Shown here: piece after piece, positions 1-22,700 of the stretch | Position numbering within the stretch: the first letter of the stretch is position 1 | Layout: each line of letters opens with the position of its first letter | NCBI GenBank assembly: GCA_964057225.1 | Contig: OZ059897.1 | Coordinates: 7,936,001 to 8,000,000 of the forward strand | Reading direction: 5' to 3' | DNA: 64,000 nt | Source: Auanema rhodensis | Lineage: Eukaryota; Animalia; Nematoda | Notes under the pieces: generated by a model | What the model was told of the DNA's origin: nothing | The model's input: the letters and a program-made list of their open reading frames with translations, nothing else | Databases searched by the model: none | Position numbers and translations under genes: made by a program

Positions 1-49
1 AATGACTTGTAGTTCGAACTTGATGTGCCAAGATATAACGAGAGCGTCA

Positions 50-122
50 GCCCGCGTGGCCTAATGGATAAGGCGTCTGACTTCTAATCAGAAGATTGTC
101 GGTTCGATCCCGGCCGTGGGCT
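50..122 (+). tRNA. tRNA-Arg(TCT), intronless, first of 36 copies (copy n starts at 50+194*(n-1))
   Basis: Cloverleaf: acceptor GCCCGCG/CGTGGGC, D-arm GCCT..AGGC, anticodon arm TCTGA-CT[TCT]AA-TCAGA, T-arm GTCGG-TTCGATC-CCGGC; followed by a T5-6 Pol III terminator. Confidence 0.96.
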
Positions 123-3100
123 TCATCTCTTTTTTCTTCAACACCTTTTGAATCTGGATAAAGTACATTTCTGATATTTTCAAAGTGTGGACCCAATGAC
201 TTGTAGTTCGAACTTGATGTGCCAAGATATAACGAGAGCGTCAGCCCGCGTGGCCTAATGGATAAGGCGTCTGACTTCTAATCAGAAGATTGTCGGTTCG
301 ATCCCGGCCGTGGGCTTCATCTCTTTTTGCTTCAACACCTTTTGAATCTGGATAAAGTACATTTCTGATATTTTCAAATTGTGGACCCAATGACTTGTAG
401 TTCGAACTTGATGTGCCAAGATATTAGGAGAGCGTCAGCCCGCGTGGCCTAATGGATAAGGCGTCTGACTTCTAATCAGAAGATTGTCGGTTCGATCCCG
501 GCCGTGGGCTTCATCTCTTTTTGCTTCAACACCTTTTGAATCTGGATAAAGTACATTTTTGATATTTTCAAATTGTGGACCCAATGACTTGTAGTTCGAA
601 CTTGATGTGCCAAGATATTAGGAGAGCGTCAGCCCGCGTGGCCTAATGGATAAGGCGTCTGACTTCTAATCAGAAGATTGTCGGTTCGATCCCGGCCGTG
701 GGCTTCATCTCTTTTTGCTTCAACACCTTTTGAATCTGGATAAAGTACATTTTTGATATTTTCAAACTCGGGACCCAATGACTTGTAGTTCGAACTTGAT
801 GTGCCAAGATATAAAGAGAGCGTCAGCCCGCGTGGCCTAATGGATAAGGCGTCTGACTTCTAATCAGAAGATTGTCGGTTCGATCCCGGCCGTGGGCTTC
901 ATCTCTTTTTGCTTCAACACCTTTTGAATCTGGATAAAGTACATTTTTGATATTTTCAAAGTCGGGACCCAATGACTTGTAGTTCGAACTTGATGTGCCA
1001 AGATATAACGAGAGCGTCAGCCCGCGTGGCCTAATGGATAAGGCGTCTGACTTCTAATCAGAAGATTGTCGGTTCGATCCCGGCCGTGGGCTTCATCTCT
1101 TTTTGCTTCAACACCTTTTGAATCTGGATAAAGTACATTTCTGATATTTTCAAAGTGTGGACCCAATGACTTGTAGTTCGAACTTGATGTGCCAAGATAT
1201 AACGAGAGCGTCAGCCCGCGTGGCCTAATGGATAAGGCGTCTGACTTCTAATCAGAAGATTGTCGGTTCGATCCCGGCCGTGGGCTTCATCTCTTTTTTC
1301 TTCAACACCTTTTGAATCTGGATAAAGTACATTTCTGATATTTTCAAAGTGTGGACCCAATGACTTGTAGTTCGAACTTGATGTGCCAAGATATAACGAG
1401 AGCGTCAGCCCGCGTGGCCTAATGGATAAGGCGTCTGACTTCTAATCAGAAGATTGTCGGTTCGATCCCGGCCGTGGGCTTCATCTCTTTTTGCTTCAAC
1501 ACCTTTTGAATCTGGATAAAGTACATTTTTGATATTTTCAAACTCGGGACCCAATGACTTGTAGTTCGAACTTGATGTGCCAAGATATAACGAGAGCGTC
1601 AGCCCGCGTGGCCTAATGGATAAGGCGTCTGACTTCTAATCAGAAGATTGTCGGTTCGATCCCGGCCGTGGGCTTCATCTCTTTTTGCTTCAACACCTTT
1701 TGAATCTGGATAAAGTACATTTCTGATATTTTCAAAGTGTGGACCCAATGACTTGTAGTTCGAACTTGATGTGCCAAGATATAACGAGAGCGTCAGCCCG
1801 CGTGGCCTAATGGATAAGGCGTCTGACTTCTAATCAGAAGATTGTCGGTTCGATCCCGGCCGTGGGCTTCATCTCTTTTTGCTTCAACACCTTTTGAATC
1901 TGGATAAAGTACATTTTTGATATTTTCAAAGTCGGGACCCAATGACTTGTAGTTCGAACTTGATGTGCCAAGATATAACGAGAGCGTCAGCCCGCGTGGC
2001 CTAATGGATAAGGCGTCTGACTTCTAATCAGAAGATTGTCGGTTCGATCCCGGCCGTGGGCTTCATCTCTTTTTGCTTCAACACCTTTTGAATCTGGATA
2101 AAGTACATTTCTGATATTTTCAAAGTGTGGACCCAATGACTTGTAGTTCGAACTTGATGTGCCAAGATATAACGAGAGCGTCAGCCCGCGTGGCCTAATG
2201 GATAAGGCGTCTGACTTCTAATCAGAAGATTGTCGGTTCGATCCCGGCCGTGGGCTTCATCTCTTTTTTCTTCAACACCTTTTGAATCTGGATAAAGTAC
2301 ATTTCTGATATTTTCAAAGTGTGGACCCAATGACTTGTAGTTCGAACTTGATGTGCCAAGATATAACGAGAGCGTCAGCCCGCGTGGCCTAATGGATAAG
2401 GCGTCTGACTTCTAATCAGAAGATTGTCGGTTCGATCCCGGCCGTGGGCTTCATCTCTTTTTGCTTCAACACCTTTTGAATCTGGATAAAGTACATTTTT
2501 GATATTTTCAAACTCGGGACCCAATGACTTGTAGTTCGAACTTGATGTGCCAAGATATAAAGAGAGCGTCAGCCCGCGTGGCCTAATGGATAAGGCGTCT
2601 GACTTCTAATCAGAAGATTGTCGGTTCGATCCCGGCCGTGGGCTTCATCTCTTTTTGCTTCAACACCTTTTGAATCTGGATAAAGTACATTTTTGATATT
2701 TTCAAAGTCGGGACCCAATGACTTGTAGTTCGAACTTGATGTGCCAAGATATAACGAGAGCGTCAGCCCGCGTGGCCTAATGGATAAGGCGTCTGACTTC
2801 TAATCAGAAGATTGTCGGTTCGATCCCGGCCGTGGGCTTCATCTCTTTTTGCTTCAACACCTTTTGAATCTGGATAAAGTACATTTCTGATATTTTCAAA
2901 GTGTGGACCCAATGACTTGTAGTTCGAACTTGATGTGCCAAGATATAACGAGAGCGTCAGCCCGCGTGGCCTAATGGATAAGGCGTCTGACTTCTAATCA
3001 GAAGATTGTCGGTTTGATCCCGGCCGTGGGCTTCATCTCTTTTTGCTTCAACACCTTTTGAATCTGGATAAAGTACATTTTTGATATTTTCAAAGTGTGG

Positions 3101-6100
3101 ACCCAATGACTTGTAGTTCGAACTTGATGTGCCAAGATATAACGAGAGCGTCAGCCCGCGTGGCCTAATGGATAAGGCGTCTGACTTCTAATCAGAAGAT
3201 TGTCGGTTCGATCCCGGCCGTGGGCTTCATCTCTTTTTGCTTCAACACCTTTTGAATCTGGATAAAGTACATTTCTGATATTTTCAAAGTGTGGACCCAA
3301 TGACTTGTAGTTCGAACTTGATGTGCCAAGATATAACGAGAGCGTCAGCCCGCGTGGCCTAATGGATAAGGCGTCTGACTTCTAATCAGAAGATTGTCGG
3401 TTCGATCCCGGCCGTGGGCTTCATCTCTTTTTGCTTCAACACCTTCTGAATCTGGATAAAGTACATTTTTGATATTTTCAAAGTCGGGACCCAATGACTT
3501 GTAGTTCGAACTTGATGTGCCAAGATATAACGGGAGCGTCAGCCCGCGTGGCCTAATGGATAAGGCGTCTGACTTCTAATCAGAAGATTGTCGGTTCGAT
3601 CCCGGCCGTGGGCTTCATCTCTTTTTGCTTCAACACCTTTTGAATCTGGATAAAGTACATTTTTGATATTTTCAAAGTCGGGACCCAATGACTTGTAGTT
3701 CGAACTTGATGTGCCAAGATATAACGAGAGCGTCAGCCCGCGTGGCCTAATGGATAAGGCGTCTGACTTCTAATCAGAAGATTGTCGGTTCGATCCCGGC
3801 CGTGGGCTTCATCTCTTTTTGCTTCAACACCTTTTGAATCTGGATAAAGTACATTTTTGATATTTTCAAACTCGGGACCCAATGACTTGTAGTTCGAACT
3901 TGATGTGCCAAGATATAAAGAGAGCGTCAGCCCGCGTGGCCTAATGGATAAGGCGTCTGACTTCTAATCAGAAGATTGTCGGTTCGATCCCGGCCGTGGG
4001 CTTCATCTCTTTTTGCTTCAACACCTTTTGAATCTGGATAAAGTACATTTTTGATATTTTCAAAGTCGGGACCCAATGACTTGTAGTTCGAACTTGATGT
4101 GCCAAGATATAACGAGAGCGTCAGCCCGCGTGGCCTAATGGATAAGGCGTCTGACTTCTAATCAGAAGATTGTCGGTTCGATCCCGGCCGTGGGCTTCAT
4201 CTCTTTTTGCTTCAACACCTTTTGAATCTGGATAAAGTACATTTCTGATATTTTCAAAGTGTGGACCCAATGACTTGTAGTTCGAACTTGATGTGCCAAG
4301 ATATAACGAGAGCGTCAGCCCGCGTGGCCTAATGGATAAGGCGTCTGACTTCTAATCAGAAGATTGTCGGTTCGATCCCGGCCGTGGGCTTCATCTCTTT
4401 TTTCTTCAACACCTTTTGAATGTGGATAAAGTACATTTCTGATATTTTCAAAGTGTGGACCCAATGACTTGTAGTTCGAACTTGATGTGCCAAGATATAA
4501 CGAGAGCGTCAGCCCGCGTGGCCTAATGGATAAGGCGTCTGACTTCTAATCAGAAGATTGTCGGTTTGATCCCGGCCGTGGGCTTCATCTCTTTTTGCTT
4601 CAACACCTTTTGAATCTGGATAAAGTACATTTTTGATATTTTCAAAGTGTGGACCCAATGACTTGTAGTTCGAACTTGATGTGCCAAGATATAACGAGAG
4701 CGTCAGCCCGCGTGGCCTAATGGATAAGGCGTCTGACTTCTAATCAGAAGATTGTCGGTTCGATCCCGGCCGTGGGCTTCATCTCTTTTTGCTTCAACAC
4801 CTTTTGAATCTGGATAAAGTACATTTTTGATATTTTCAAAGTCGGGACCCAATGACTTGTAGTTCGAACTTGATGTGCCAAGATATAACGAGAGCGTCAG
4901 CCCGCGTGGCCTAATGGATAAGGCGTCTGACTTCTAATCAGAAGATTGTCGGTTCGATCCCGGCCGTGGGCTTCATCTCTTTTTGCTTCAACACCTTTTG
5001 AATCTGGATAAAGTACATTTCTGATATTTTCAAAGTGTGGACCCAATGACTTGTAGTTCGAACTTGATGTGCCAAGATATAACGAGAGCGTCAGCCCGCG
5101 TGGCCTAATGGATAAGGCGTCTGACTTCTAATCAGAAGATTGTCGGTTCGATCCCGGCCGTGGGCTTCATCTCTTTTTTCTTCAACACCTTTTGAATGTG
5201 GATAAAGTACATTTCTGATATTTTCAAAGTGTGGACCCAATGACTTGTAGTTCGAACTTGATGTGCCAAGATATAACGAGAGCGTCAGCCCGCGTGGCCT
5301 AATGGATAAGGCGTCTGACTTCTAATCAGAAGATTGTCGGTTTGATCCCGGCCGTGGGCTTCATCTCTTTTTGCTTCAACACCTTTTGAATCTGGATAAA
5401 GTACATTTTTGATATTTTCAAAGTGTGGACCCAATGACTTGTAGTTCGAACTTGATGTGCCAAGATATAACGAGAGCGTCAGCCCGCGTGGCCTAATGGA
5501 TAAGGCGTCTGACTTCTAATCAGAAGATTGTCGGTTCGATCCCGGCCGTGGGCTTCATCTCTTTTTGCTTCAACACCTTTTGAATCTGGATAAAGTACAT
5601 TTCTGATATTTTCAAAGTGTGGACCCAATGACTTGTAGTTCGAACTTGATGTGCCAAGATATAACGAGAGCGTCAGCCCGCGTGGCCTAATGGATAAGGC
5701 GTCTGACTTCTAATCAGAAGATTGTCGGTTCGATCCCGGCCGTGGGCTTCATCTCTTTTTGCTTCAACACCTTCTGAATCTGGATAAAGTACATTTTTGA
5801 TATTTTCAAAGTCGGGACCCAATGACTTGTAGTTCGAACTTGATGTGCCAAGATATAACGGGAGCGTCAGCCCGCGTGGCCTAATGGATAAGGCGTCTGA
5901 CTTCTAATCAGAAGATTGTCGGTTCGATCCCGGCCGTGGGCTTCATCTCTTTTTGCTTCAACACCTTTTGAATCTGGATAAAGTACATTTTTGATATTTT
6001 CAAAGTCGGGACCCAATGACTTGTAGTTCGAACTTGATGTGCCAAGATATAACGAGAGCGTCAGCCCGCGTGGCCTAATGGATAAGGCGTCTGACTTCTA

Positions 6101-6839
6101 ATCAGAAGATTGTCGGTTCGATCCCGGCCGTGGGCTTCATCTCTTTTTTCTTCAACACCTTTTGAATCTGGATAAAGTACATTTCTGATATTTTCAAAGT
6201 GTGGACCCAATGACTTGTAGTTCGAACTTGATGTGCCAAGATATAACGGGAGCGTCAGCCCGCGTGGCCTAATGGATAAGGCGTCTGACTTCTAATCAGA
6301 AGATTGTCGGTTCGATCCCGGCCGTGGGCTTTATCTCTTTTTGCTTCAACACCTTCTGAATCTGGATAAAGTACATTTTTGATATTTTCAAACTCGGGAC
6401 CCAATGACTTGTAGTTCGAACTTGATGTGCCAAGATATAACGAGAGCGTCAGCCCGCGTGGCCTAATGGATAAGGCGTCTGACTTCTAATCAGAAGATTG
6501 TCGGTTCGATCCCGGCCGTGGGCTTCATCTCTTTTTGCTTCAACACCTTTTGAATGTGGATAAAGTACATTTCTGATATTTTCAAAGTCGGGACCCAATG
6601 ACTTGTAGTTCGAACTTGATGTGCCAAGATATAACGAGAGCGTCAGCCCGCGTGGCCTAATGGATAAGGCGTCTGACTTCTAATCAGAAGATTGTCGGTT
6701 CGATCCCGGCCGTGGGCTTCATCTCTTTTTGCTTCAACACCTTTTGAATCTGGATAAAGTACATTTTTGATATTTTCAAACTCGGGACCCAATGACTTGT
6801 AGTTCGAACTTGATGTGCCAAGATATAACGAAAGCGTCA

Positions 6840-6912
6840 GCCCGCGTGGCCTAATGGATAAGGCGTCTGACTTCTAATCAGAAGATTGTCGGTTCGATCC
6901 CGGCCGTGGGCT
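6840..6912 (+). tRNA. tRNA-Arg(TCT), last (36th) copy of the array
   Basis: Same sequence as the first copy. Confidence 0.95.
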
Positions 6913-7068
6913 TCATCTCTTTTTGCTTCAACACCTTTTGAATCTGGATAAAGTACATTTTTGATATTTTCAAAGTGTGGACCCAATGACTTGTAGTTCG
7001 ATCTTGATGTGCCAATAACGGGAGCGTTAACGACATCTAACATAGTGCAAACTCTCTTTTTATTTCAG

Positions 7069-7612
7069 CGTTTCGTTCCTCTACCAGCTTCCTCTCTTGC
7101 ATCATCTCTTAATTGTATCTTCATGAGGTGGAACGAGATGAAAACAGGTATTGAAGTTTATGACAAGGATGGTACTATTATTGGAGTCTCAAAAGTTGCT
7201 GCCCAAGCAGTATGTGATTAGTGCATAGACTCTTCAATTATTTAAATGTTTGCAGGCTGTTCGTGACACTACTCTAGTTAGAGCATTCCTCCCTGTACCT
7301 CTATTGTTAGCTCCTCCTTGTATATTACCATTTTTAGAAAAGTATGTTCGAATTATTCTAGTTTTACTGCATTGTACTGTCTAATTACTTGTAGGCTCAA
7401 ATGGGTTAAATCTTCGCCTGTTCGTCATTTACTTGTGAATGCTATGGTTTGTACTGTTTCATTTGCTTTATCACTTCCCGTAGCTTTGGCGCTTTTTCCT
7501 CAAGAATCTGCTGTAAGTTTTGAATTCAATATGCTTTCCCATTTTTTATTTTCAGATTCCAATCGAGAAACTGGAGAAAGAATTACAAGAAAAAACAAAA
7601 GCTACCGAACTC
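7069..7612 (+). CDS. sfxn-5: Sideroflexin (SFXN5-like), 3' exons 7069-7209, 7256-7341, 7395-7512, 7556-7612; last exon interrupted by the LTR element; 5' exons lie outside the window
   Basis: Spliced translation RFVPLPASSLASSLNCIFMRWNEMKTGIEVYDKDG..AVRDTTLVRAFLPVPLLLAPP..FALSLPVALALFPQESAIPIEKLEKELQEK matches the sideroflexin C-terminal half; GT-AG introns of 43-53 nt keep the frame. Confidence 0.9.
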
Positions 7613-7977
7613 GTTCCATTCGGAGACTCTATATATGTAACTGCAGGGTTAGAGCCAGACCGACTAGAGGAATGAGGAATGGCACCGCCTTCCCTCATGC
7701 CCCTATTCGGGAGTTCGCCCCTTTGCAAGCCCATGGACGGTTTGCATCTAACTTAGTTAATCTTATATATTAGTCTTTGTCTTGTAAATGTAGTTTACTT
7801 TATCCTTGTGTTAATGTATTGTAATGATATTGTATTGTGTATAATAAACCTATATATTTCCTTATCTTATGTAATCCTTATGCTCTGTTTCCATACCGCT
7901 ACACTTATGGAATACTATACGCGTAGTTGAGCAGACTACAATGGTCTGTTCAATATACGTAGGAGCATAATGGAACG
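7612..7977 (+). repeat. 5' LTR (366 bp)
   Basis: Direct repeat of 19320-19685 with no difference found by eye; terminal inverted repeat CGTTCCATT...AATGGAACG; TATATAT near 7630; AATAAA at 7843-7848. Confidence 0.97.
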
Positions 7978-7990
7978 TGGAGGTTCCACC
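7978..7990 (+). promoter_or_regulatory. Primer-binding site complementary to the tRNA-Gln 3' end
   Basis: TGGAGGTTCCACC directly after the 5' LTR is the reverse complement of GGTGGAACCT-CCA, the animal tRNA-Gln 3' end. Confidence 0.88.
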
Positions 7991-8960
7991 TCGAACTCAT
8001 TTTTGTCGCAAAAACTCGCATAAAAAGTCCATATTTTGATATCTAAATTAAAACTTCCTCCACGGTTAGCAACATAATGAGGGCGCCAACTTGTATAAGG
8101 TGCAGGTACAAGGGATCTCTCTTTTAGAGAGCTAGGACTACATAATTTTGAAATTTCACCCGCTGTCCCCACTCATAAAACCGTCTGAGTGTCCACCCTT
8201 ATAATACCGTATCCTGCACCGCTTCTCTTGCATTTTTTTTTGAGGACGTTTGGATCGAAATAGGGGACAATTTCACCAAACGAAATTTTGATTACATTAT
8301 TATTTGGCAACGAGGAGTTAGAATGAAATTTTGAAAGCGCACAAAGTTTAATATTTTATTGTGGTCAGGACTAGAGATTTGAAAGTTAAATTCAGGCGTA
8401 AAAGAGCATGCTAACTAAATATTTTTGCGGGAGCCGTTATTCGGTTTTTATTTTTTTTTTGATTGTGAGAATAGACCACACTAGTCCGAAAAATCCTGGC
8501 ACAAATTTTATTGCCTGTCAGGTCATTTTGGCGAAAGCACATGGGCTACGGATGTTTTCTTCTCCGTAGAATGTGTCACCTTCCTCAGCTCATTTTTGTT
8601 GCTAACATCATAAGATATTCCCACACACCTACCGTAGTATTCATATTGTAATATTCTATAAATTAGTAGAATGGTTTAAAGAAAAAAATTGCGTTTTATA
8701 AACGAGCTTTGGTCTCAGTCCATTAGTAAAATGAGCAATCTTTTTAAATATTCTCGGAATCTCATTAGCATGCCAAAATCATTCCGAAAAAGAATCGCCC
8801 ACGGCTTTTAATAATAACGTGCACATGAGCCATTTTCCCAAGGCGCACGCACTCCTTCTTTATTAATAAGCTCGACCAAAGTTTGTGTTATGGAAAAAAA
8901 AAAAAAAGAGAGAGAGAACAAATGAGTGAAATTAAGTATTTATTATATATGAAACAATTG

Positions 8961-9494
8961 TTAAAAGCCCCATTTAAAATGCAACTGTCTCACAAATTCT
9001 ATAGGCTGTGAGATGGGCTCATCGCTAGGCTCTAAATACTGCGAATACACCGAATCCGCAGAGGTCCTTAGCAATAAGCCCATAGGAGACTGTTCATAAA
9101 ATAAATAAATTTTAAACAAAATTTTAGACATATAATCATAAAAATCATGAGACTTATGCTCATACCAATTCCAAGGGGATGCGACCAGATTTGGGTTTTC
9201 ATACCAATGCGCGCACAAGTCGGTGAGGCACCATCGCCGGATAGCTGCAACCTCATCCGCTATTTCCTGCATTAGGGAGAAGTTTACTAATCCCCTTCCC
9301 AGATAATGCATCTTTAAATCCTCAATAAACTAAAAATTCTTATTAAGATAACATGTTTCTTTGTTTTAACCAACCATCTTAATTATGTCTGGGTGCGGCC
9401 TATAAGCTAACACTTCGTCTTGATCATACAAGACGAGGTCAGCGTACAGCTTCCTCAAGACAAAAGTCATTCCCGATAGACCTTCATAAGCCAT
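8961..9494 (-). CDS. Antisense two-exon accessory gene in the retroelement leader (exon 1 9494-9375, intron 9374-9330, exon 2 9329-8961), 162 aa, unknown function
   Basis: A 40-codon ATG exon joins the 116-aa ORF in frame through a 45-nt GTTGGT...TTTTTAG intron that contains an in-frame stop; A-rich sequence precedes the ATG. Confidence 0.7.
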
Positions 9495-9907
9495 TCTTTG
9501 ATTTATTTTTTTTTTTCAGCTCTACAAATATAAAGATTCTTATGCATAAAAAGGGGACATAAAACGACTGAAAATCTCTCTCATACTTTCAAGAATTCAA
9601 TTAGAGTAAAGTATTAAGATTGAGGCTAGAAAGAGCGAAGACCAAAAAAAATTTATAATTGATGAACATCTGTGAAATAGAATAAAGAAAAGAGAATACG
9701 GTAGATAGGCGGAGCCAGATCTCAGGCCAAGATTTTAAAACTCTTTCTCATCTAATAACGATTCTCGGCGAAAGACGCCACGTCTCAATCTTCAAACGTT
9801 TCTTACTTTTCCTATAACCGACCCGAATTTCTTGTCACTCATTCAACGTCAACATCCCCCATATAACGAAACACTCGCGGTTTTTCCGAACCAAGAGTGA
9901 TTCCAAA

Positions 9908-12900
9908 GTGGCACGAAGATACTCTTCGGCCGTCCCTGCTCTATACCCTTCTGAGTCCAGTGACGACATCGCAGTCGCCAGTCGAACCAGAAGCCGCACT
10001 CGACTCCTCAGTGTTCAGATTGAAGAGCCTGAACAAGAGGTAAAACCCAAAGTCGAGAAAACCTTCATTCCTCGAGAAGGCACGTATTCACCTCCGGACA
10101 ACACCGAGGAGGACCCTGATTTCTATATTCAGGACTACAATATTCAAACTTCAGCTTCAACTCCAAAGGTACACTCTTTTAAAAGTAATAAAAAGATTCA
10201 AAAAATTCAAAAACCAAAACAAATAACCTCTAATACTTCACCAGCCACTCCCCACCTAAACTTATCAACTTTATCAGTTAATACTGATAACGATCTTGCA
10301 TCTTCTTTTGAACTAACTCTAACACCGCAGGCATTTTCCACTCCGATAGAAAACTCACAACTTAATAAAACCTCATCTCTCACTATTCGCAAATCACCCT
10401 TATCAGTTATCACTGATAAGCTTGATTCGAAAAAGCTTGATTCTAAAAAAATTAATAAAAGAAAAACTAATACACCGCGTAGGCGCTCAACCTCTAATAA
10501 TCCCGTAGAACCAAATCAGGAAATTACCGAAGTTTTGCCCTTATCACTAACTACTGATAAGTTCAAAAGTAAGAAATCTTTAACAGCTCGCTTAATAAAA
10601 GTTTTGAATTTGTCTCCAGGGGAGGTAACAACAGAACAAGTTGATAACTCTCTTCACGTATCCTCCAACCCAACCCTTAATAAGTCAGATAGCGCTATAC
10701 CCAGCTCAAGCGTATCAATACATTCGACGCCTCAGGCAACGAGTCGAATTATCAAACTCCCAGGGAAGCGGTTCTCCTCAGCCGCCCCTACCATTAGTTA
10801 TCCAACATCTGGTAACTCGAAAAAGGGAGGTAAGAATTTAACGGCGAGAAGCTCAGGCAGTAAAGGGATTACGTCATCTCGCACATACCCTGAGGATATA
10901 CCAACCATGACGGAGACACCACGTCTTCCGGGAGCTGGTAAATCTACCATTGCGCACGCATTAAGCTCACCTTATTGCCCCATATACGACGGAAGTCGTA
11001 ACTTTAGAGATTTCGTGGCAAAGTTTAATACCTTTTCTAACGCCTTAGGCTTAGTGATGCCCGAAAGACTAACTATTTTACCATTACTATTGAAAAATGA
11101 TAGAGCAGAGGAAGCTTATTTAGAGCTACCTGACAAGGTCAGAACTGCTGGACCTTGGGTTACCCTAATAGAAGAGTTAACATCCAAGCTGTGTCCCGAA
11201 TACAATCAAGACCCTGCCCTTATCACACTTCAAAACAGCACTCAAGGCGATTTATCAATTGATGGTTTTGCACAAACGTTAAGAAACCTCAGCTTAAATG
11301 CTTTCTCTAATAGTGATACTCATAAAGATCACATTCTGAGGTCCACATTTTTGAGAGGCTTGAAAAATACGATACGCCCAGGGGTAATTCGAGCAAAACC
11401 CAAAACTTTTGCTGAGGCTGTTGATAGTGCTCGCTGGGAGGAATCAATTGCAAACCAAGTAGCAGACCCTCAGGCGCTATTGGTTAACGCAATTGAAAGA
11501 ACTTTCCCCCCGCGCAGAAACAATGGTGGGAGAGGTATGGCAAGAGGTTATCAATCTTTTAATAATAAAAATTATCAAAATTATAATAATTATAACAATT
11601 ATCATCCAAACTTTCAAAACAATCAAAATTATCATAAATTTTCAAAAAATCAAAAAGGCTGGAATTTCCAAAACCCATTTGCTAGGAACCGCAATTTTGG
11701 TGACCGCGGTCGAAATTATCAGAATCAAAATCAAAATGGGTATCAAAGAAGCCATAATGCATCACAAAATCAAGAAATGAGCAATAATAGACAGAGAAAT
11801 AACAGTACCTTTAGGGGAAATAACAACAATAGAGGCAGAGGTAGAGGCTCAAGAGTCAATAATTTGACTCTGATATCTCCTTTGACTTTAGCCGTAGCTT
11901 TATCAGTAATCTTATCACTGGTTACAACAGCTGAAGCATACCAGCTATGTACTAAAGCTACTGGAGGAGCCCTTCTCCGTCCCCCATCTCTCCGAAAATG
12001 CTTATTACCACCAATAAAGCATATCTTACGAACAAAAGTTCATCTTTATACAAGGAATCAAACGGCACATGAATGGGATGCATGGAGATGCTCCAAAGAA
12101 ATTCATAAAATGTGTATCAGAGACCTTTTGTTCCTTAGAGATACCAATACAACGATAGCGAGAATTGAAAAGATACCAGCTGCAGAATGCAGACTGGCAG
12201 TGAGAGATAGAAGATGGAATTGGAGTGAATTAAAGAAGATCGACAGCATAACATATGCAACTGACGAGCCTTCCTTCTCGCCAGGCCGATCTTTTAATAA
12301 TGAGCTATGTGAAGAGAAAGCCAGATTGGTTATCGAAAGAGGGGTTATGACACGGATGCCAGATGAAACTATAATCTCCAATTTAATACTAAATACTGAA
12401 GGATGCTTAGCGCATCATGGAGAATGTGCATCAGATACCTCAATCATCATATGGGAGAAACAGCCTTATGAATATCGATGCAACTATATCGACATGAGTG
12501 AATATGATGTGATAATTGGAGACGGCATTATTCTGTTACCAACCACTCAATCAGCCCTTGTAATCGATCAAAAAGAGATACCGAAGCAAATATCTTCTTG
12601 TTTTAAACAGCCAATCTTCCACACCACAACTGGCAATTACATTCTCTTACCACAGTACCCAAATGACACCAATATCCATGTTTTAATAGAGAGAGAATAT
12701 AAGAAACTTCCGGCGAAAAGAGATAAAAGAGCAATTGCGGAATGCACGGTTGAATTAAACAAGGAGTGGATACAAAAACAGGAAGATTTTGAAACTTTAA
12801 TATTAAATATTTGTCCTTATCCTTTCTTACGACCGGTGATGAGTAATCCTGGTATTTATCAGATAATACCGCTTATAAAGGCCAGACGAGCTGTCAACCC

Positions 12901-15900
12901 TTCATATTCAATTATTGACTGGGTTTCAGCACATCCCGAGAAGTTTTATTTCTTCTTAAGAAGTCCCGTATCTGATAAATCCATACAACGTTTCCTTCAA
13001 ACATACGAAATACACGACCCTGAGGAAGCAATACTTTATTTTCTTGCGCAAAAGGAACTGGCAGCAACCACTCGCGGCGCTATACGGTATTTAACCTCAC
13101 AACAATTATTAGAACAGATAGGTGACAGATTAACAGCACACGAATTTGACGAAAAACTGCTAGAAAAAGACGGATCCTACCGTGAAAGAGCCGAAAGCAT
13201 AGCGATGGAGTTAGCTTATACACCGGTAATATTTGAAAACAATCTGTCGGTACCATCAAGGCAAGAGGTTTTAAAATCCTTTGTGAACATGCCGCCGATC
13301 CGACCAACTCTAACAACTGACAATGCTGATGAGCGTATAGTACTTAGAAACACTCTTTACTTATACCATAACTTGATGACATTGCGAGTAATAAGGCCAA
13401 ATAAAACAGCAGCAGCCGTAGATGATGAAAAGTTCCGACAATTAACAATCAATGTGCCAGATACCAACAAATTATATCGAGATAAAGATTCTAACTACGG
13501 TATATCGATAGGGCCCCACCCTCGCATTCAAAACCCAAGCGCAGATACACGCCAGCTACTTATAAAAACATTTTTACCACTGTTAGAGGATATTGAAACA
13601 CCGCCTTATCTGACTAGAAGACTGTCATTAACGACAACAACGGACAAACCCGCTTCACTAGTTCAGGAGACAACTAAAAGCCATACGACTCGGATTCCGA
13701 CGACAACCACAGTTGAGACGACAACAGCCGCGATAACTACGACTCTCTCGCCAACAACATTAGCAACAGTCACTGACACGGCGTCACGAATCTTAAGGAA
13801 ACAAAGAACATCATCTCCACCCGTAGAAACCAGAGAAATTCAGGCTCAGGCAACGTATACAGCGTCAAAAGTGAACAACGAAATACAATTCAACCTCAAC
13901 GTATCTCGCAGAATAGCTCAAGATCATCTACAATATACAACAACACTCATACAAGAAGAGCTACAGAAACATTTCATGGAATCTTATGAATCCATATGTG
14001 AGATTCAAAATAGATACCTCGAGCTATGGCGTTCTATTTTACACATAGAACCTACAATAGCAATGAGGACTATTTTAGGAAGAGAGGATATTGCAGCCCG
14101 TTTCGTAGGCAGCGATATAGTTCATGTTCATATATGCCTACCTCTTCAACCTAAAGCTGTTTATCATAATCATAAGATCAATGATACATGCTATTTGGAA
14201 ACACCAGTAATAACAGAAGATGAGAGATTATATTTTGCTGCTCCAGGATCAAGAGACTTATTAACACATGGAAAAGAGATAGATTGCGAACATGTACCCA
14301 CAGATGTATACTATCAAAATGGAGAATGGATAAATATAAATGGATCGGTTGAAGTAAAACCAATATCACTCTTTGATAAAGCGCAATACCACCAATTAAC
14401 ACCTTTAAAGTTCACAGGCGCTAACTTATACACCAATTTATCATTGAGAGTTTACTCAATGTCAACAGCTATTGCATATGGAGCAAGTTTAGCATCCATA
14501 CGACAGAACCATGTTTTACATACTATTCACAACGATCCAAAAATTACGTCCGCCTTTAATCTTTTGAAAAAGGGCAGTGACTATATCTCTAAAGCAGCTG
14601 AGTTCACAACTTCCGCCTGGACTAGCGTAAAGCAATTTCTAATAGGATCAATTGAGAGAACACTCATCTTCATAGGATCAATGGTTACGATTGCCGCAGT
14701 ATTAATAATTCTTTTCGTTGTTGCTAAATTTTGGTTCTTCAGAGCCACTCCACTAACCGTAATGCATGTCCACGAAATAGATAATGAGCCCCCAAGCTAT
14801 GAAGAAACATTGGAACTTGTAAGCCGCCCAGACCAACAGATGCCAGATAACATCATGAAGCAATACTATCCTGCTTTAGTAACATTTATTCCAATCGCAA
14901 TACCATTTGTTGCTTCTATTGTATCAGCGGAAACAAAGTTACCATTAATATATATATCAGTTGAAGATAAACTGATTTTAGCTTTATGGGATTCAGGCTC
15001 ATCAGTGTCATATGTTAGGCTCTCCACCCTCAAATATCTGAACATGGCCGAAAATGTCAAGAAGAGACATTTAGTAGCGATGGCAGCCAACAAGTCCACT
15101 TTCACATTTTATGGAAAGATAAATCTTGTAATTGAAATTGCCGGTTACGAGATCGAACACACCTTTTTGGTCTCAAACGATCATGACTGTCCTGCTCCCG
15201 CTTTAATTGGACTAGATTTCATGAAAGCGCTTGACAGCGAAAACATCGACGTCAGCCTTAAACCATCCAAGAAGAGGTTGGAGATTGGAAACAATGCCAT
15301 CCCATTAATAGGAAACGAATCTATTAAGCATACGGAGATAACTGTGAATATCATTAATTTAAGAACAAAAACATTAAAGCCTGATGAAGAGGCACCTATC
15401 CCAATAAAGACAGATAAACCACTAGAATCTAACGAAGTGGTTGTCTTAGGGGATAGTGGAAGCGCATTAAAATCATTATATCCAACTGCGTTTCGTGATA
15501 CCAGTGGAGTATATGTTATGTTCCGTAACAATACCGATGAAACAATAGCTATGGAAGCTAATTCAGTCATCGGACAGGCAATAATTGGAGAAATTCCGGC
15601 TTGTGAACCCTTTAAGCATAAGCCAATTCTACCATATGTTCCGCCAGAGGCCGATTGGGAGAGTAAACTACCATATTTTCCAAGAGACTTCATAAAAGAT
15701 CTTGATCTAGAGAATGCTGATCTCACGAAAGAAGAAAAACATGAGCTTACAAAAATAATTGAAAGCCATCGTGAGGCATTTCTTAACGAGGACAGGAAAA
15801 TAGGCTTATTTAAAGGTCCTATAGAGCATACCATACCATTGAGAACAGATATGGATATGCCAAAGCCGAGAATAACACGTATTCCCTTAGGAAAACAGGA

Positions 15901-18613
15901 AGAAATTGAAAAACAAGTCAAAGAAATGCTTGAGCAAGGCATAATAGAGCCTTCTACATCTCTATTTAATAGCCCTGTAGTACTAGTTAAGAAGAAAGAT
16001 GACACGTATAGGTTTGTGACAGATTTTCGAGCTTTAAATAATGTCACACGCAAGCAAACTTATGTCATTCCAAGCATTTCTGACATAGTTGATTTGGCAG
16101 CAGGCGCCCAATTTTTCTCAAACTTCGATTTAGTGTCAGGATTTTTTCAAATATCCTTGAGAAAATCAGATCGACCACTAACAGCATTTACGACCACATC
16201 CGGCACATACCAGTACAAACGGATGCCGATGGGCCTTTGTGGAGCCCCTCATACCTTTCAAACAGCAGTAAGGTATTTGCAAAGTAAATGTTCTTGTAAA
16301 CTATTTGTTTATTTGGACGATCTATTAGTTATATCTGATACAAGAGAACAACATCTCAAAGATATCGATGATTTACTGCAAGCAGTAGAAGAATTGGGAA
16401 TGAAGATAAAGCTTAAGAAATGCGCTTTTGCTCAACCAGAAGTGAAATTTCTAGGACTTATTGTAGGACGTCAAGGTATAAAACCTGACCCTCAAAAAGT
16501 CGCCGCCATACAAGATTATCCGGCACCAAAGAATGCAACAGGTGTACGAGCATTCTTGGGAATGGTTGGATTCTTTCGCAAATTCATGAAAGATTTTGCA
16601 CGTATCGCAAGCCCTTTATACGATCTGACAAAGGCAGATACTGAATTCAAATGGGAAAACAAACATCAAGAAGCTTTAGACCTCCTTAAAAGAAGTTTAA
16701 TACAGGCACCCGTTTTAAGCCCACCTAAATCGGACCGCTTGTTTATAGTTGAAAGCGACGGTAGTAACATCGCCATAGGTGCTGTATTATTACAACCGGA
16801 AGATCCAAAACAACCTCTGAAAAATCTACACCCTATCGCATTTGCAAGCAGAAAACTAGTTAAAGCCGAACGTAACTACGCACCAATCGAGATAGAAGCA
16901 TTAGGCCTTGTATATGCATTAAATCAATTCCGTACATACATTCTTGGAACTCATACTATATGTATTACGGACCATCGACCTCTTACCAGCTTAATGACAC
17001 GCAGAGACTTATTTGGTCGTCTTGCGAAGTTCCAGCTGGTCATCCAAGAATATGATATTGAAATAAAATATCGCGCAGGCCAATTAAATAAAGTATGCGA
17101 TGCTCTATCTCGATATATAGGTGAAGAAGCTAACGATGCTAAGCCGGAAACAAAGAAGAAGAAAATGGAAGAAATTCACATTAACGCCATAAATACACCA
17201 ACAATAAAGGAAATTCAACTAAGCACCCCTTGGATTAAACGGACGATAGCGGAGATTGAATATAGAGCACAAAAGAACATGACAGCTAATGACAGATATT
17301 GTGTCATAAATGACTTGCTCTATACAAAACCAACAGACAAAAAGCCACAACCCGCTATCGTAATACCACAAGAACACCCCATAATTGAGGAAATAATCAA
17401 AGTTTTTCATGAGGATCCTACAATTGCAGCACATCAAGGAATTATTAAAACAAAAGAAGCAATTCTAAGAAGATTCTATTGGACAAATATGCAGAACGAC
17501 ATTACTATATTCATCAAGAACTGCATTAAATGTGCTCAAAGAAAAAAAGATCCACATTCCATGACGGTACAACCAATAGGTCATTTTGAGATACCAAGCA
17601 AGCCATTTGAACGAGTCCACATGGACGTAATGGGACCATTTCCCCCTTCAAAAAGAAACTGTACCTACGTCATTACCATGCAAGACGCATTTACAAAATG
17701 GTCAACAACAATTGCTGTACCACAAATAACAACGGAAATCACAATTGATCGATTTCTAAGACATTTCGTTTACATTTTTGGACCACCCCATCGCTTGATC
17801 ACCGATAGAGGTTCAAACTTTGTATCTAAAAAGTTCGAAGAAATGTGTACTAAACTTGGAATCAAACATGAACCAACACTACCACACCAAAAGAACTCAA
17901 ATGGACAAGTGGAAAGACTTCACCGAACCCTCGAAGAAGGATTAACCCACTACTTAAAAGAGGACCTTAGTGACTGGGATACTGTATTACCAAAAATCAC
18001 TTTTGCTATTAACAATATTCAGCACGCGACTACAGGGATTGCGCCATACATTGCATTATTCGGTAAAGAATGCAGAATGTCAATGGACGCTGAATTACCA
18101 GAAACGATCACCAAAATTCAAGAAATTTCTGAAGAATTACTCCAAAGAAGACCAGATATGGACAAGAGAGACGAAATAATAAAGAACCGCATAGCTAAAA
18201 ATCAAGAAAATGCGAAAAAGAAGAAAGATAGAACGCAAAGAGCACACCATAGAGACATTCAACCGGGCGACATGGTGATGACGACTATAAAATCACACCA
18301 AATCGGCCAAAAGCTTCGGAAAAGCTATGATGGACCATGCGAAGTCATCAACGTAGAAGGATCAAAAGTTCAAATCAGAAATTCATCAGGAAAACTACAA
18401 GATATCCACAAAGATAACTTGAAAATCTTCTCTCCTGCTTCACAAAACATCTCTTACAACACTCGCGCAAGGTTTCGAGAAAGTCAAGCAGAAGAAGATA
18501 GCGACATCGAAATAATAGAAGTGATCAACAGGAACAACAAGGATAGCATAGATACAGAGCCAGAAGATGAAAATGAAGACGAAATATGGCTTCCGAGGAA
18601 TGAAGAAGAATAA
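9908..18613 (+). CDS. Single polyprotein: S/T/K-rich extension, Gag capsid, N/Q/RG-rich region, signal peptide, gB-like Env, TM, protease, RT, RNase H, integrase (first ATG at 10907)
   Basis: Gag-CA-like [26 protein letters not shown] (10976-11440); LALWDSGS protease (D at 14990); YLDD (16310-16321); RNase H [20 protein letters not shown]..DALSR; integrase H..H..CIKC, HMD, TDRG, QVER. Confidence 0.96.
   Translation: [2901 protein letters not shown]
11864..14740 (+). other. env: Env-like region inside the polyprotein: class III (herpesvirus gB-like) fusion glycoprotein
   Basis: Signal-like [47 protein letters not shown]; furin site RDKR; [44 protein letters not shown]..TCY resembles the gB central helix region; several N-X-S/T sites; TM at ~14660-14740. 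Confidence 0.85.
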
Positions 18614-19319: not shown

Positions 19320-19685
19320 CGTTCCATTCGGAGACTCTATATATGTAACTGCAGGGTTAGAGCCAGACCGACTAGAGGAATGAGGAATGGCACCGCCTTC
19401 CCTCATGCCCCTATTCGGGAGTTCGCCCCTTTGCAAGCCCATGGACGGTTTGCATCTAACTTAGTTAATCTTATATATTAGTCTTTGTCTTGTAAATGTA
19501 GTTTACTTTATCCTTGTGTTAATGTATTGTAATGATATTGTATTGTGTATAATAAACCTATATATTTCCTTATCTTATGTAATCCTTATGCTCTGTTTCC
19601 ATACCGCTACACTTATGGAATACTATACGCGTAGTTGAGCAGACTACAATGGTCTGTTCAATATACGTAGGAGCATAATGGAACG
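19320..19685 (+). repeat. 3' LTR (366 bp)
   Basis: Direct repeat of 7612-7977. Confidence 0.97.
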
Positions 19686-19690
19686 AACTC

Positions 19691-19711
19691 TTCTACAACA
19701 AAGGTCTTTAA
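19691..19711 (+). CDS. sfxn-5: Displaced final codons of sideroflexin (FYNKGL-stop) after the 3' LTR
   Basis: TTC TAC AAC AAA GGT CTT TAA directly follows the duplicated target site; NKGL is the conserved sideroflexin C-terminus. Confidence 0.92.
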   Translation, partial: FYNKGL

Positions 19712-22700
19712 GTTGATAATAATGACAGCAGTTATGATTTATGCATTTCGTCCTGATTGTTCTTCGAGAATATCAAATATCATTAGTTTAGTTATTGATC
19801 TAAATAAAGAATTGTGTTACTTTTTGAATAGAAATTATTTTTATAAGGAAATATACTGTATTCGATTGAACTGAAATTCAAAATTGATGAGATACCTGAG
19901 ATCTTGTTTGGAGTAGATTTATAGAAAGTATAGACGTATTGAAGAACTGTCATAGGTAGCAGAAACTGTAATAAAACCAAAAACATTGTTTATATAAAAT
20001 AAAAAAAAGATAATAATATCATCTAACATCATATGCAACTTTCACTATGTATATAATTTTATTTTGGTCTCTATTCGTTCTATTTTCCTTAATCTGGATA
20101 TTTATTGTATGCTTTGTCAACGTTAAGACAAACATTTACAGTAATATAATGAAAGATATAATTGTTTTTTCTTGTACTTAATCGAAATTCGTCAAATATA
20201 CAAAACGAAATCTTAATTAAAATCTTTAAAATACATTGTTCATATCAAGAATTCTCTGTCACAGTTCCATGAACCTACCATAGTACTTGCTCATTTCAAA
20301 TTGTGAACATTGCTTGGTCTTTTGAGTCTAATATGTTATGCACGATAGAGATTAAGTGACTCACTTATACGTATTATCAACACCTACAACCTAACTTAAA
20401 TACTATATAAACTTGGAGTTTAAATAGTTTTCTTACTATTTTACAATACTAGCTCATTGAAATAATTAGATTTGTTTTTAAAATTATATAAACTTCATCT
20501 ATAAACTATGCTAATTATAATCTTGTTCTATATTTATTTTAAATAAATATCTTATCAGAATTTTAATATATTTTTCTTTGCTCATAATAGTTTCCAAAAG
20601 AATATTTTTCTTTTCACATGTTTTCATTTTGTGAAATAACAGGGTCAAGTGTAGATCTTCTCATTTACATTTGTGATGTATGAGGTGATAGCAAAAACAT
20701 GAATAAGATACAATGAACAGAACATCTCTTTCTCATTCTCTCTATCTCATCTCTTCAAATTACTCATCTCTCAGATGTTCTTCAGTTATTTAAACGAAAA
20801 AGATTTAAAAATCAATAAAGATTTCAAGTTCAAAGTTTCAATGAAATCGAGATAAGTTTTAAGAAAGAACTTCATTAGCGTGTTGTGAGCTTTCAAACAG
20901 AAGAACATTACGAATAATTTAATAATGATCGATATGTAATAGTAATATGAACTATTTATCTTGAATATTTGCATTATGTTTCTTCAAGATTCATCTCATA
21001 ATTTCATTCTTCTTCTTCTCAAAGTACTGTATTTTGATTGCTTTCAGTCATGCTTCTGTGAGATTATTTAAATATATTTCCTATTTTATCTTTCTTATCT
21101 TCAATAATTCTTTTTCATATCGTTTCTAATGGACAATATACAATTATGCGTACGAATTATATAAAGAAAGGAAAATGCTACTGACCACTTCTCTCTTTCT
21201 CTCAATGCATTTATCATCAAATAGCTTTTCAACATCTTTTTCCCACAATATCATCTCATACAAACTCATAAACATTTTGTTCAAAAACAAACTCAGATGA
21301 TCATTATCCAAAGAGACACAACATATTTTCTAAACTGCAAACGATTTTTTTTTCAAGTCATCGTGCCCTCATGCGACGTCAAGCATTCCGGAGATAAAGC
21401 GAGAACGTGAAAATAAAGTTTAAATCTTTACTCCCAGTTTTTTCTTTTTTTTCCTTGTTTTTTTTTCTAAAATAATCTACGAACCCTTGTAAACAAAATG
21501 AACAGATTATGCTTTTAATTTAATTTTTTCATAACAACAAAACGGTTATTGTTTGTTTTTTGATTTATTCTGAATCTTTTAACTTTTCTATATAATGTGA
21601 AATGAATATTAGGTCTCTCTTATCACTCTTTTGGTTGCTTCCTGAGATCGGCTTGACCTTTTTGCCTTCTTCATAAAGCAGCACCTCTCTCTCTCTCTCT
21701 CTTTGTAGATGTGTGACCTCGTTGATAAGATATTTCTTGGACATCAAATGCTTTATAAAGATCAGTCTGTTTATCCTCAGGGGGTCCTTATGCATTTGAT
21801 TACCGATAAAGTCTCTTTCACCTATCTATCTCTATCAACTTCGTTGTCATTGTCTTAACACCATCATTCTCTCTATGATTTTGTCTTTGACCTCTTACTC
21901 TTTCTCTCTTTCGTATATTTCATCTCTCATCTCACAGCACCTCCCTCGTCACTCTCATTTACATTTGATATGTAACTGTCTCTACTTCTTTCTTCTCAAA
22001 ACATTCGATACTCATGTATCTGAAACTGAAAGAAGATAGTAAGATACTCCAGAAATTAGTGAAAAGCTGTTTGAAATGAACTCAGACACAAATCATTGGC
22101 GCTACTAATCACATGTCACAACAGTGCAACTAGAAAACAAATAAAAAACAATAAAGATGAACCTTATGATGAATAGAACTTAAAACCTCATTGATAAGTA
22201 AAATCTGTTGAAATTAAGTTCTAAAACCAATCCGATAGAGAGCTATTAGTGAGCTCTCAGAAAAGAAGAATGCGGACGAAAACCTGTTACTTTTCACTGA
22301 ATTTTCCGTTCCCCCATTTTCGAGTTTGTTTTGCTTCGTGATGTGTCAACAAACTTTGACTCTAACCCTCTATAAGGAAAAAATCTTTCGTTGACCAGCA
22401 CTCTGAGCACAATGAGACAAGAGATTCTCTCTATAATCGACAATTTCATATACATTTTGATATTTCTTTTCCTTTAAGTTTCATTTCAATTGTATTCAGA
22501 AATATCTAATAGTTATCTTCATATAGAACATCGTAATGTGTATGTTTCTAATCAACAATTACTTCTTGTGCTGTTAAGAATCTAAACTTGAATCAAGCTA
22601 GTTGCATGCTGTATCCAGTTCATAGGATTAAATCTCGTCTTTCCTCTTCATTGTTACATAAGATTTAAAGTTTGTGACGTTATTCGCTCTACTCAAGACG

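What the first reader, a model, noticed from the sequence alone, without database searches (positions are those of the whole stretch)
8961..9494. Hidden intron-containing antisense gene in the retroelement leader
Seen: on the minus strand, ATG at 9494 opens MAYEGLSGMTFVLRKLYADLVLYDQDEVLAYRPHPDIIKM. A 45-nt GT-AG intron (host-typical size, in-frame TAA inside) then joins in frame to FIEDLKMHYLGRG...HFKWGF, giving 162 aa. The ORF track shows only part of exon 2. Because the intron is antisense to the genomic RNA, it would survive retrotransposition. Inference: an accessory protein (silencing suppressor, export factor or captured gene), conceptually like HTLV-1 HBZ. I recognise no family.
Basis: partly seen in the sequence, partly recalled or inferred. 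Interest (0 to 1): 0.8.

Follow-up and report, generated by a model that had tools for sequence, protein, structure and literature searches.

The report
Spliced antisense gene in nematode retroelement
A young, envelope-bearing retrotransposon of what is likely a nematode carries, backwards and in front of its gag gene, a two-exon gene that is spliced in RNA and conserved as protein, and whose unknown product likely helps the element persist by binding a host protein.

Summary
Confirmed. The minus-strand gene 9494-8961 (40 + 122 codons, 45-nt GT-AG intron) lies between the primer-binding site and gag of an intact gag-env-pol Ty3/gypsy element with identical LTRs. RNA contigs show exactly the predicted joint 9329/9375 (CT..AC on the plus strand) in 3 of 4 runs, all one study; 4 of 4 DNA runs laid show no joined form. 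Against a diverged variant, 12 of 16 exon changes are synonymous, and the only listed indels inside the gene fall in the intron. One homologue (59% identity) begins at the same acceptor. No family, solved relative or fold was found; the model is low-confidence and helical. The protein is acidic and aromatic, with no membrane or basic segment, so a protein-binding accessory factor is more likely than an RNA binder; function is untested. Antisense extra genes are known in plant and fungal LTR elements and HTLV, and sense accessory genes in Cer1, but ten literature searches showed no intron-bearing antisense gene in the leader of an animal gypsy element; the key 2022 family paper could not be read. 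New variant of a known kind.

The parts
9375..9494 (-). Exon 1 coding part, 40 codons from ATG 9494
   Evidence: Sequence; joined to exon 2 in RNA contigs; variant indels listed at 9501, 9505, 9511 lie just upstream of the ATG and none of the 12 shown rows lies in the exon (4 rows not shown)
9330..9374 (-). 45-nt phase-0 GT-AG intron, 22% GC
   Evidence: Skipped in 3 of 4 RNA runs; present in 4 of 4 DNA runs; 5 substitutions and a 6-7-nt insertion in variants, GT and AG unchanged
8961..9329 (-). Exon 2, 122 codons plus stop
   Evidence: 11 of 14 listed changes synonymous; homologue P0001 59% identical over the whole exon
8939..8944 (-). AATAAA 17 nt after the stop, followed by a T-rich tract: likely polyadenylation signal
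   Evidence: Sequence; use not shown
9522..9529 (-). Candidate splice or SL trans-splice acceptor lying downstream of all upstream ATGs; a second candidate ends at 9568
   Evidence: RNA contigs run across both without a listed loose end, a 22-nt leader would not show in contigs
7612..7977 (+). 5' LTR, 366 bp, ends CGTTCC...GGAACG
   Evidence: 100% identical to the 3' LTR; junctions
7978..7990 (+). Primer-binding site of the tRNA-Gln type
   Evidence: the same 12-mer is listed for 2 of 30 nematode rows seen in the supplement of PMC13524379, 8 of 30 are Gln type
9818..18613 (+). Single open frame: ATG-less 363-codon extension, then gag, gB-type env, protease, RT, RNase H, integrase (first ATG 10907)
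   Evidence: Pfam: fusion glycoprotein E 4.9e-15, glycoprotein B 5.2e-9, RT 5.4e-32, RNase H, integrase; capsid match weak, E 0.03
19320..19685 (+). 3' LTR, preceded by a purine tract and followed by the 4-bp target duplication

Best explanation
The element carries, on the strand opposite to gag, a two-exon gene that is spliced in RNA and kept under purifying selection, and its 162-residue product likely works as an accessory factor that binds a host protein and so likely helps the element stay expressed and inherited. Shown: position inside the LTRs, splicing, retention of the intron in DNA copies, selection on the frame, a homologue with the same intron. Follows from retroelement biology: the copy that is reverse-transcribed is the plus-strand RNA, on which this intron reads CT..AC and is not removed, so the minus strand is the one place where the element can keep a permanent intron. 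Inferred: the cassette is built like a host gene (host-sized intron, AATAAA, candidate trans-splice acceptor), so it would be expressed apart from the genomic RNA and would look like self to a germline that is reported to silence unspliced RNA. Inferred from composition only: a soluble, helical, acidic and aromatic protein without a basic patch acts through protein contact rather than by binding RNA; the most likely target is host silencing or antiviral machinery.
For: Joint in 3 of 4 RNA runs and spliced form alone accounts for the depth there. No joined form in 4 of 4 DNA runs. 12 of 15 changes synonymous over 9155-9426 against 23% expected, p 5e-6, uncorrected pN/pS about 0.07; 12 of 16 with the dropped non-synonymous row 9049. 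P0001, E 4e-38, 59%, opens with F-Q ahead of the aligned first residue of exon 2, the reading of a TTYCAG acceptor. Loose ends at 9094 and 9126 read by hand in the same frame give 10 + 10 stop-free codons resembling both proteins, a third relative (table 7). Patches of a diverged relative also appear at 7963-7996, 8202-8285, 8595 and 9974-10027, as expected of a sister element that kept the gene. Maximum 19-residue hydropathy 0.9, 22 acidic against 14 basic, 27 aromatic residues. Cer1 shows that nematode gypsy elements use accessory proteins, and that paper cites silencing of exported unspliced RNA (PMC10309623 passages).
Against: No function was tested and no family, structure or partner was found. 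The model has mean pLDDT 53.5. RNA comes from one study, at depth 4-6, as unstranded contigs; strand rests on the intron ends; translation is not shown. The variant differences cluster in 9185-9396 and were pooled over runs; the relatives' patches are not shown to lie on one molecule, and the DNA around P0001 was not seen. Only one homologue among 1.84 billion representatives means the gene is narrow in range or evolves fast, so it is not a general need of this element family as far as these databases show.
Confidence: 0.5

Rival explanations
1. The protein regulates the element's own cycle directly: it binds Gag, integrase or the genomic RNA complex (export, packaging, targeting) or damps sense transcription as HBZ does.
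For: Same evidence for a real selected gene. Head-to-head position 323 nt from the polyprotein frame. CERV exports Cer1 genomic RNA without a recognised RNA-binding motif (PMC10309623 passage); HBZ and APH-2 repress sense transcription (PMC3185765 passages).
Against: Net acidic, no KRKK-like cluster in the sequence, no bZIP or other nucleic-acid-binding family in Pfam.
Confidence: 0.27
2. It is cargo that acts on host physiology or inheritance (a benefit to the worm, or one half of a selfish toxin-antidote arrangement) and has no role in the element's replication or defence.
For: Host-like gene anatomy and expression in all three runs that cover it; rotifer LTR elements carry unrelated enzyme cargo (PMC5408684 passages).
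Against: No host homologue; no second gene model of 55 aa or more in the rest of the leader or the 3' untranslated part; no signal or membrane segment.
Confidence: 0.13
3. The antisense RNA or the act of transcription matters (double-stranded RNA, transcriptional interference) and the frame is incidental or a decaying passenger.
For: RNA contigs run on from exon 1 to 9923, into the polyprotein frame, so sense and antisense RNAs may overlap; non-coding antisense RNAs are known in micropia and others (PMC7264820 passage).
Against: Synonymous bias and indels confined to the intron; 59%-identical protein homologue with the same intron position; no Rfam match.
Confidence: 0.05

Closest known systems
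Nematode GAG-ENV-POL Ty3/gypsy elements with HSV/gB-type env (PMC13524379; Sacco et al. 2022, title only)
   Same: Gene order gag-env-pol, gB-type env, tRNA-Gln primer site, LTR length and overall size
   Different: The main text of PMC13524379 has 0 occurrences of 'antisense' or 'accessory'; no leader gene is described in the passages seen. Sacco 2022 was not held.
HTLV-1 HBZ and HTLV-2 APH-2 (PMC3185765)
   Same: Antisense, spliced, protein-coding, inside the provirus
   Different: They start in the 3' LTR and lie at the 3' end; HBZ is a bZIP factor. This gene lies in the 5' leader with a 45-nt intron, its own AATAAA, and no bZIP match.
Antisense extra ORFs of plant Tat/Retand, Grande, RIRE2 and fungal Boty brtn (PMC11963269, PMC7264820, PMC4408406)
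   Same: Conserved antisense gene of unknown function within a Ty3/gypsy element; Grande gene23 has its own antisense promoter
   Different: [quoted passage not shown] Plant extra ORFs upstream of gag are also reported. That brtn has an intron is my recall, not seen in any call.
C. elegans Cer1 CERV and Cer19 ORF2 (PMC10309623, PMC7084138)
   Same: Extra, lineage-restricted proteins in nematode LTR elements; CERV is made from a spliced mRNA
   Different: CERV is 517 aa, sense, shares exons with gag; Cer19 ORF2 has zinc knuckles. The orientation and introns of Cer19 ORF2 were not given in the passages seen.

Membership tests
Nematode GAG-ENV-POL gB-type Ty3/gypsy element (the carrier) | Two LTRs with target duplication | tested here: met
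   366 bp, 100% identical, 4-bp duplication
Nematode GAG-ENV-POL gB-type Ty3/gypsy element (the carrier) | Protease-RT-RNase H-integrase order | tested here: met
   Pfam positions
Nematode GAG-ENV-POL gB-type Ty3/gypsy element (the carrier) | gB-type env between gag and pol | tested here: met
   PF24664 and PF00606 at residues 1005-1148, both ahead of the protease; capsid match weak
Nematode GAG-ENV-POL gB-type Ty3/gypsy element (the carrier) | tRNA-Gln primer site as in Caenorhabditis members | tested here: met
Nematode GAG-ENV-POL gB-type Ty3/gypsy element (the carrier) | Placement in the nematode clades of an RT tree; nematode host | not tested
   No tree built. Host is an animal (AP-2 gene); nematode is inferred from 43-53-nt introns, acceptor sequences and the element type
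HBZ/APH-2 | Antisense, spliced transcript | tested here: met
HBZ/APH-2 | Coding exons between env and the 3' LTR, ATG in the 3' LTR | tested here: not met
   Both coding exons lie in the 5' leader
HBZ/APH-2 | Transcription starts in the 3' LTR | not testable with these tools
   Contigs show neither start nor strand
HBZ/APH-2 | bZIP domain (HBZ) | tested here: not met
   No Pfam family for either exon, the read-through or P0001
Plant Retand/Tat antisense ORFs | TRP28 or PMD domain, pol-3' LTR position | tested here: not met
   position
CERV | Sense spliced mRNA sharing exons with gag | tested here: not met
   Minus-strand gene, no overlap with the polyprotein frame
CERV | Needed for export of genomic RNA | not testable with these tools
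   Needs an experiment
BC-box (Elongin-binding) adaptor, as in Vif or SOCS proteins; pattern recalled | [STPA]-L-x-x-L-C-x-x-x-[ILVA] at the start of a helix, followed by a cullin box | tested here: not met
   Strict pattern absent from both proteins; a looser L-x-x-L-C-x3-aromatic pattern, chosen after seeing the sequence, is in both and in 257 of 20,000 shuffles; it lies inside helix 21-44 of a low-confidence model
Any known fold | Structural match | tested here: inconclusive
   Model pLDDT 53.5; Foldseek no E<=0.001 in viral or PDB sets; best VIA Z 5.3, rmsd 5.8 over 90 residues

The most novel reading that the evidence does not exclude
Envelope-bearing nematode retroelements encode a new family of counter-defence proteins, functional analogues of lentiviral Vif-type accessory factors, and hide the gene on the antisense strand with a permanent intron so that it is read as a host gene and escapes silencing of unspliced RNA; such genes are invisible to ORF-based element catalogues and may be common in long retroelement leaders.
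Probability: 0.2. Interest if true: 0.9.

Novelty: new variant of a known kind. Interest (0 to 1): 0.66.

Why it matters
Animal LTR retrotransposons are catalogued by gag, pol and env; a conserved, expressed, intron-bearing gene on the opposite strand of the leader is missed by those methods. Here it is shown by splicing and by selection, and its protein has no known family. It gives a small, concrete candidate for the open question of how retroelements cope with nematode germline silencing, and a simple screen (minus-strand two-exon models in leaders plus CT..AC joints in RNA) that can be run over the catalogued elements.

Tried and rejected
Homology: word search with exon 2 found no candidate; profile of exon 2 plus P0001 found only P0001 among 26 candidates and none among 1,164 longer candidates; HMMER over 1.84 billion representatives found 1. 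Pfam: none for the exons, the read-through or P0001. PDB sequences: best E 0.14, chance level. ESM Atlas: best 0.76 (peptidase S28) for exon 2 and 0.81 (DUF3800) for P0001, different families and chance level; the two exons together were not searched there. Folds: exon 2 pLDDT 53.5; read-through with the intron left in 41.5, not searched; no fold match. Related loci: none in metagenome or viral contigs with the gene, gag or RT, so no second full element could be read. No genome is held for the window. Rfam: none in 7600-11000. Earlier scan notes: nothing in four look-ups. No run was on record as RNA; the four guessed RNA runs proved to splice host introns. Lack of RNA cover at 8542-8984 is not used as evidence. 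Rejected: a plus-strand frame as the source of the third-position bias (the mirrored frame gives 10 of 16 synonymous and one new stop, and the best plus-strand model in the leader is 53 aa); a nested host gene (sits inside identical LTRs, tiles with gag in DNA contigs); membrane or secreted protein. Papers not held: Sacco 2022, Zhao 2011, Makeyeva 2021; titles seen in reference lists only. bioRxiv 10.64898/2026.03.22.711591: six terms, no occurrence; its supplements were not seen.

Full report
Observation. On the minus strand ATG 9494 opens 40 codons, a 45-nt intron (9374-9330) follows in phase 0, and exon 2 (9329-8961) adds 122 codons and a stop. The intron has the size and ends of three neighbouring host introns (43, 46, 53 nt) and is 22% GC between exons of 40-44%. 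An AATAAA lies 17 nt after the stop. In 300 dinucleotide shuffles of the leader none gave a model of 162 aa or more, and no other model of 55 aa or more exists in the rest of the leader or the 3' untranslated part.

The carrier. The gene lies between the primer-binding site and gag of a full-length element: LTRs 7612-7977 and 19320-19685, 100% identical, a 4-bp target duplication and a tRNA-Gln-type primer site, and one open frame 9818-18613 with a weak capsid match, gB-type fusion protein, protease, RT, RNase H and integrase in that order. This is the GAG-ENV-POL layout reported for nematodes, bryozoans and flatworms (PMC13524379, passages); 8 of the 30 nematode supplement rows I saw (of 36) have a Gln primer site and 2 have the same 12-mer. 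The host is an animal; nematode is my inference. No tree was built.

Splicing. Fifteen runs hold the stretch: 11 DNA and 4 guessed RNA. All four RNA runs were laid. All four splice the three host introns, so they hold mRNA. Three show the joint 9329/9375, 45 skipped, ends CT..AC, at depth 6.2, 5.4 and 3.9 with 57, 229 and 78 letters on the shorter side; the fourth shows no joint and its listed cover starts at 9412. CT..AC on the plus strand is GT..AG on the minus strand, which fixes the strand. Limits: one study, low depth, no starts or ends. Contigs run on from exon 1 to 9725 and 9923 across both candidate acceptors, so the 5' end and SL trans-splicing are unresolved.

DNA and selection. Four of the 11 DNA runs, one per organism label, were laid; X3 may be the window's source. 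None shows the joined form, which agrees with the intron surviving reverse transcription. Of 26 substitution rows, 21 fall in the gene and 5 outside (not used). Sixteen are exonic: 12 at third positions, 12 synonymous; five are intronic. Over the stretch covered by the variant contigs (9155-9426; the non-synonymous row 9049 lies outside and was dropped) 12 of 15 are synonymous against 23% expected, p 5e-6, uncorrected pN/pS about 0.07. Each change was scored alone and rows were pooled over runs. Of 12 indel rows shown (4 not shown) the only ones in the gene are 6- and 7-nt insertions in the intron; three lie 7-17 nt upstream of the ATG. GT and AG are unchanged. The mirrored plus-strand frame shares third positions but is not open. 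Loose ends at 9094 and 9126, read by hand, continue in the same frame for ten codons each without a stop and resemble the window protein and P0001: a third, more distant version. Further patches of a diverged relative at 7963-7996, 8202-8285, 8595 and 9974-10027 suggest a sister element, but they were not shown on one molecule.

Homologue. HMMER over 1.84 billion representatives found one protein, P0001, E 4e-38, 59% identical over all of exon 2, a singleton on a 1,035-nt contig. Its two residues ahead of the aligned start are F-Q, the reading of a TTYCAG acceptor, so the intron position is likely shared. Its surroundings could not be read.

The protein. No Pfam family, solved relative, Atlas look-alike above chance, or fold match. 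The exon 2 model is helical, mean pLDDT 53.5, best in helices 21-44 and 61-79. It has 22 acidic, 14 basic and 27 aromatic residues and no membrane-length hydrophobic segment. Conserved in both proteins are a C-L-x-D-L-C-A-H block and an aromatic C-terminus. The block loosely recalls an Elongin-binding BC box (recalled pattern), but the strict pattern is not met and the loose one was chosen after the fact: a lead only.

Mechanism. Shown: a selected, spliced, antisense gene inside a recently inserted element. From retroelement biology: only an antisense intron escapes removal from the packaged RNA. Inferred: host-like architecture lets it be expressed apart from the genomic RNA and be treated as self; PMC10309623 states that exported unspliced RNA can trigger silencing and cites Makeyeva 2021, of which I saw the title only. 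Inferred from composition: it acts by protein contact. I put 0.5 on a host-directed accessory role, 0.27 on regulation of the element's own cycle, 0.13 on host-directed cargo unrelated to replication, 0.05 on an RNA-level role or passenger, the rest on others. That it is a real protein-coding gene I put at about 0.95.

Comparison. [quoted passage not shown] HBZ and APH-2 are spliced antisense genes started in the 3' LTR (PMC3185765 passages). Nematode elements have sense CERV and Cer19 ORF2 (PMC10309623, PMC7084138 passages); rotifer and tunicate elements have extra ORFs or internal promoters (PMC5408684, PMC4402516 passages; PMC8220671 passages add nothing). Ten full-text searches listed no report of an intron-bearing antisense gene in the leader of an animal Ty3/gypsy element; the library lacks most subscription papers, including Sacco 2022 on this very family, and the strand of Cer19 ORF2 was not established. 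It works like the antisense accessory genes in layout, but fails the membership tests for HBZ, Retand ORFs and CERV.

Verdict. Real, expressed and selected; protein without a known family; function open. New variant of a known kind, interest 0.66.

Noticed in passing
window 9665-10906, plus strand: No ATG in any frame for 1,245 nt, more than twice the next longest gap in the window, although the polyprotein frame is open from 9818; 13.6 expected over 9818-10906, out-of-frame zero in 27-49 of 2,000 synonymous recodings, no Met in 363 codons p 0.0014. A GTG in good context lies in frame at 9908. Suggests a non-AUG start for a long Gag plus leaky scanning to 10907. A relative's loose ends at 9974 and 10027 read in the same frame by hand.
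   Followed up: partly
window 7612 and 7977; 19320 and 19685: LTR ends are CG...CG rather than the usual TG...CA (recalled rule); loose ends from other insertion sites break at the same places.
   Followed up: partly
window 7556-7675 and 19686-19712: The element sits in the last exon of a sideroflexin gene, just ahead of its final codons; the spliced host mRNA reads into the LTR and would end in about 20 LTR-coded residues.
   Followed up: partly
window 9513-9529: A perfect plus-strand acceptor ending at 9519 stands back to back with the minus-strand candidate at 9522; if both were trans-spliced the two mature RNAs would overlap by only 2 nt. RNA contigs span the site, so use is not shown.
   Followed up: partly
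window 9185-9396: The roughly 92%-identical variant is confined to this patch, with window-like sequence beside it in some runs: possibly a recombinant between subfamilies.
   Followed up: no
window 1-7030: Tandem array of about 36 units of 194 bp, 97-100% identical; the five units scanned each hold a tRNA-Arg(TCT) gene.
   Followed up: no
window about 13500-13800: The env part of the polyprotein holds a long Thr-rich, mucin-like stretch ahead of the gB match, and gag, env and pol are fused without a stop.
   Followed up: no
window 58100-61700, minus strand: Exon-sized repeats about 73% alike with similar translations; two scanned had no Pfam match.
   Followed up: no
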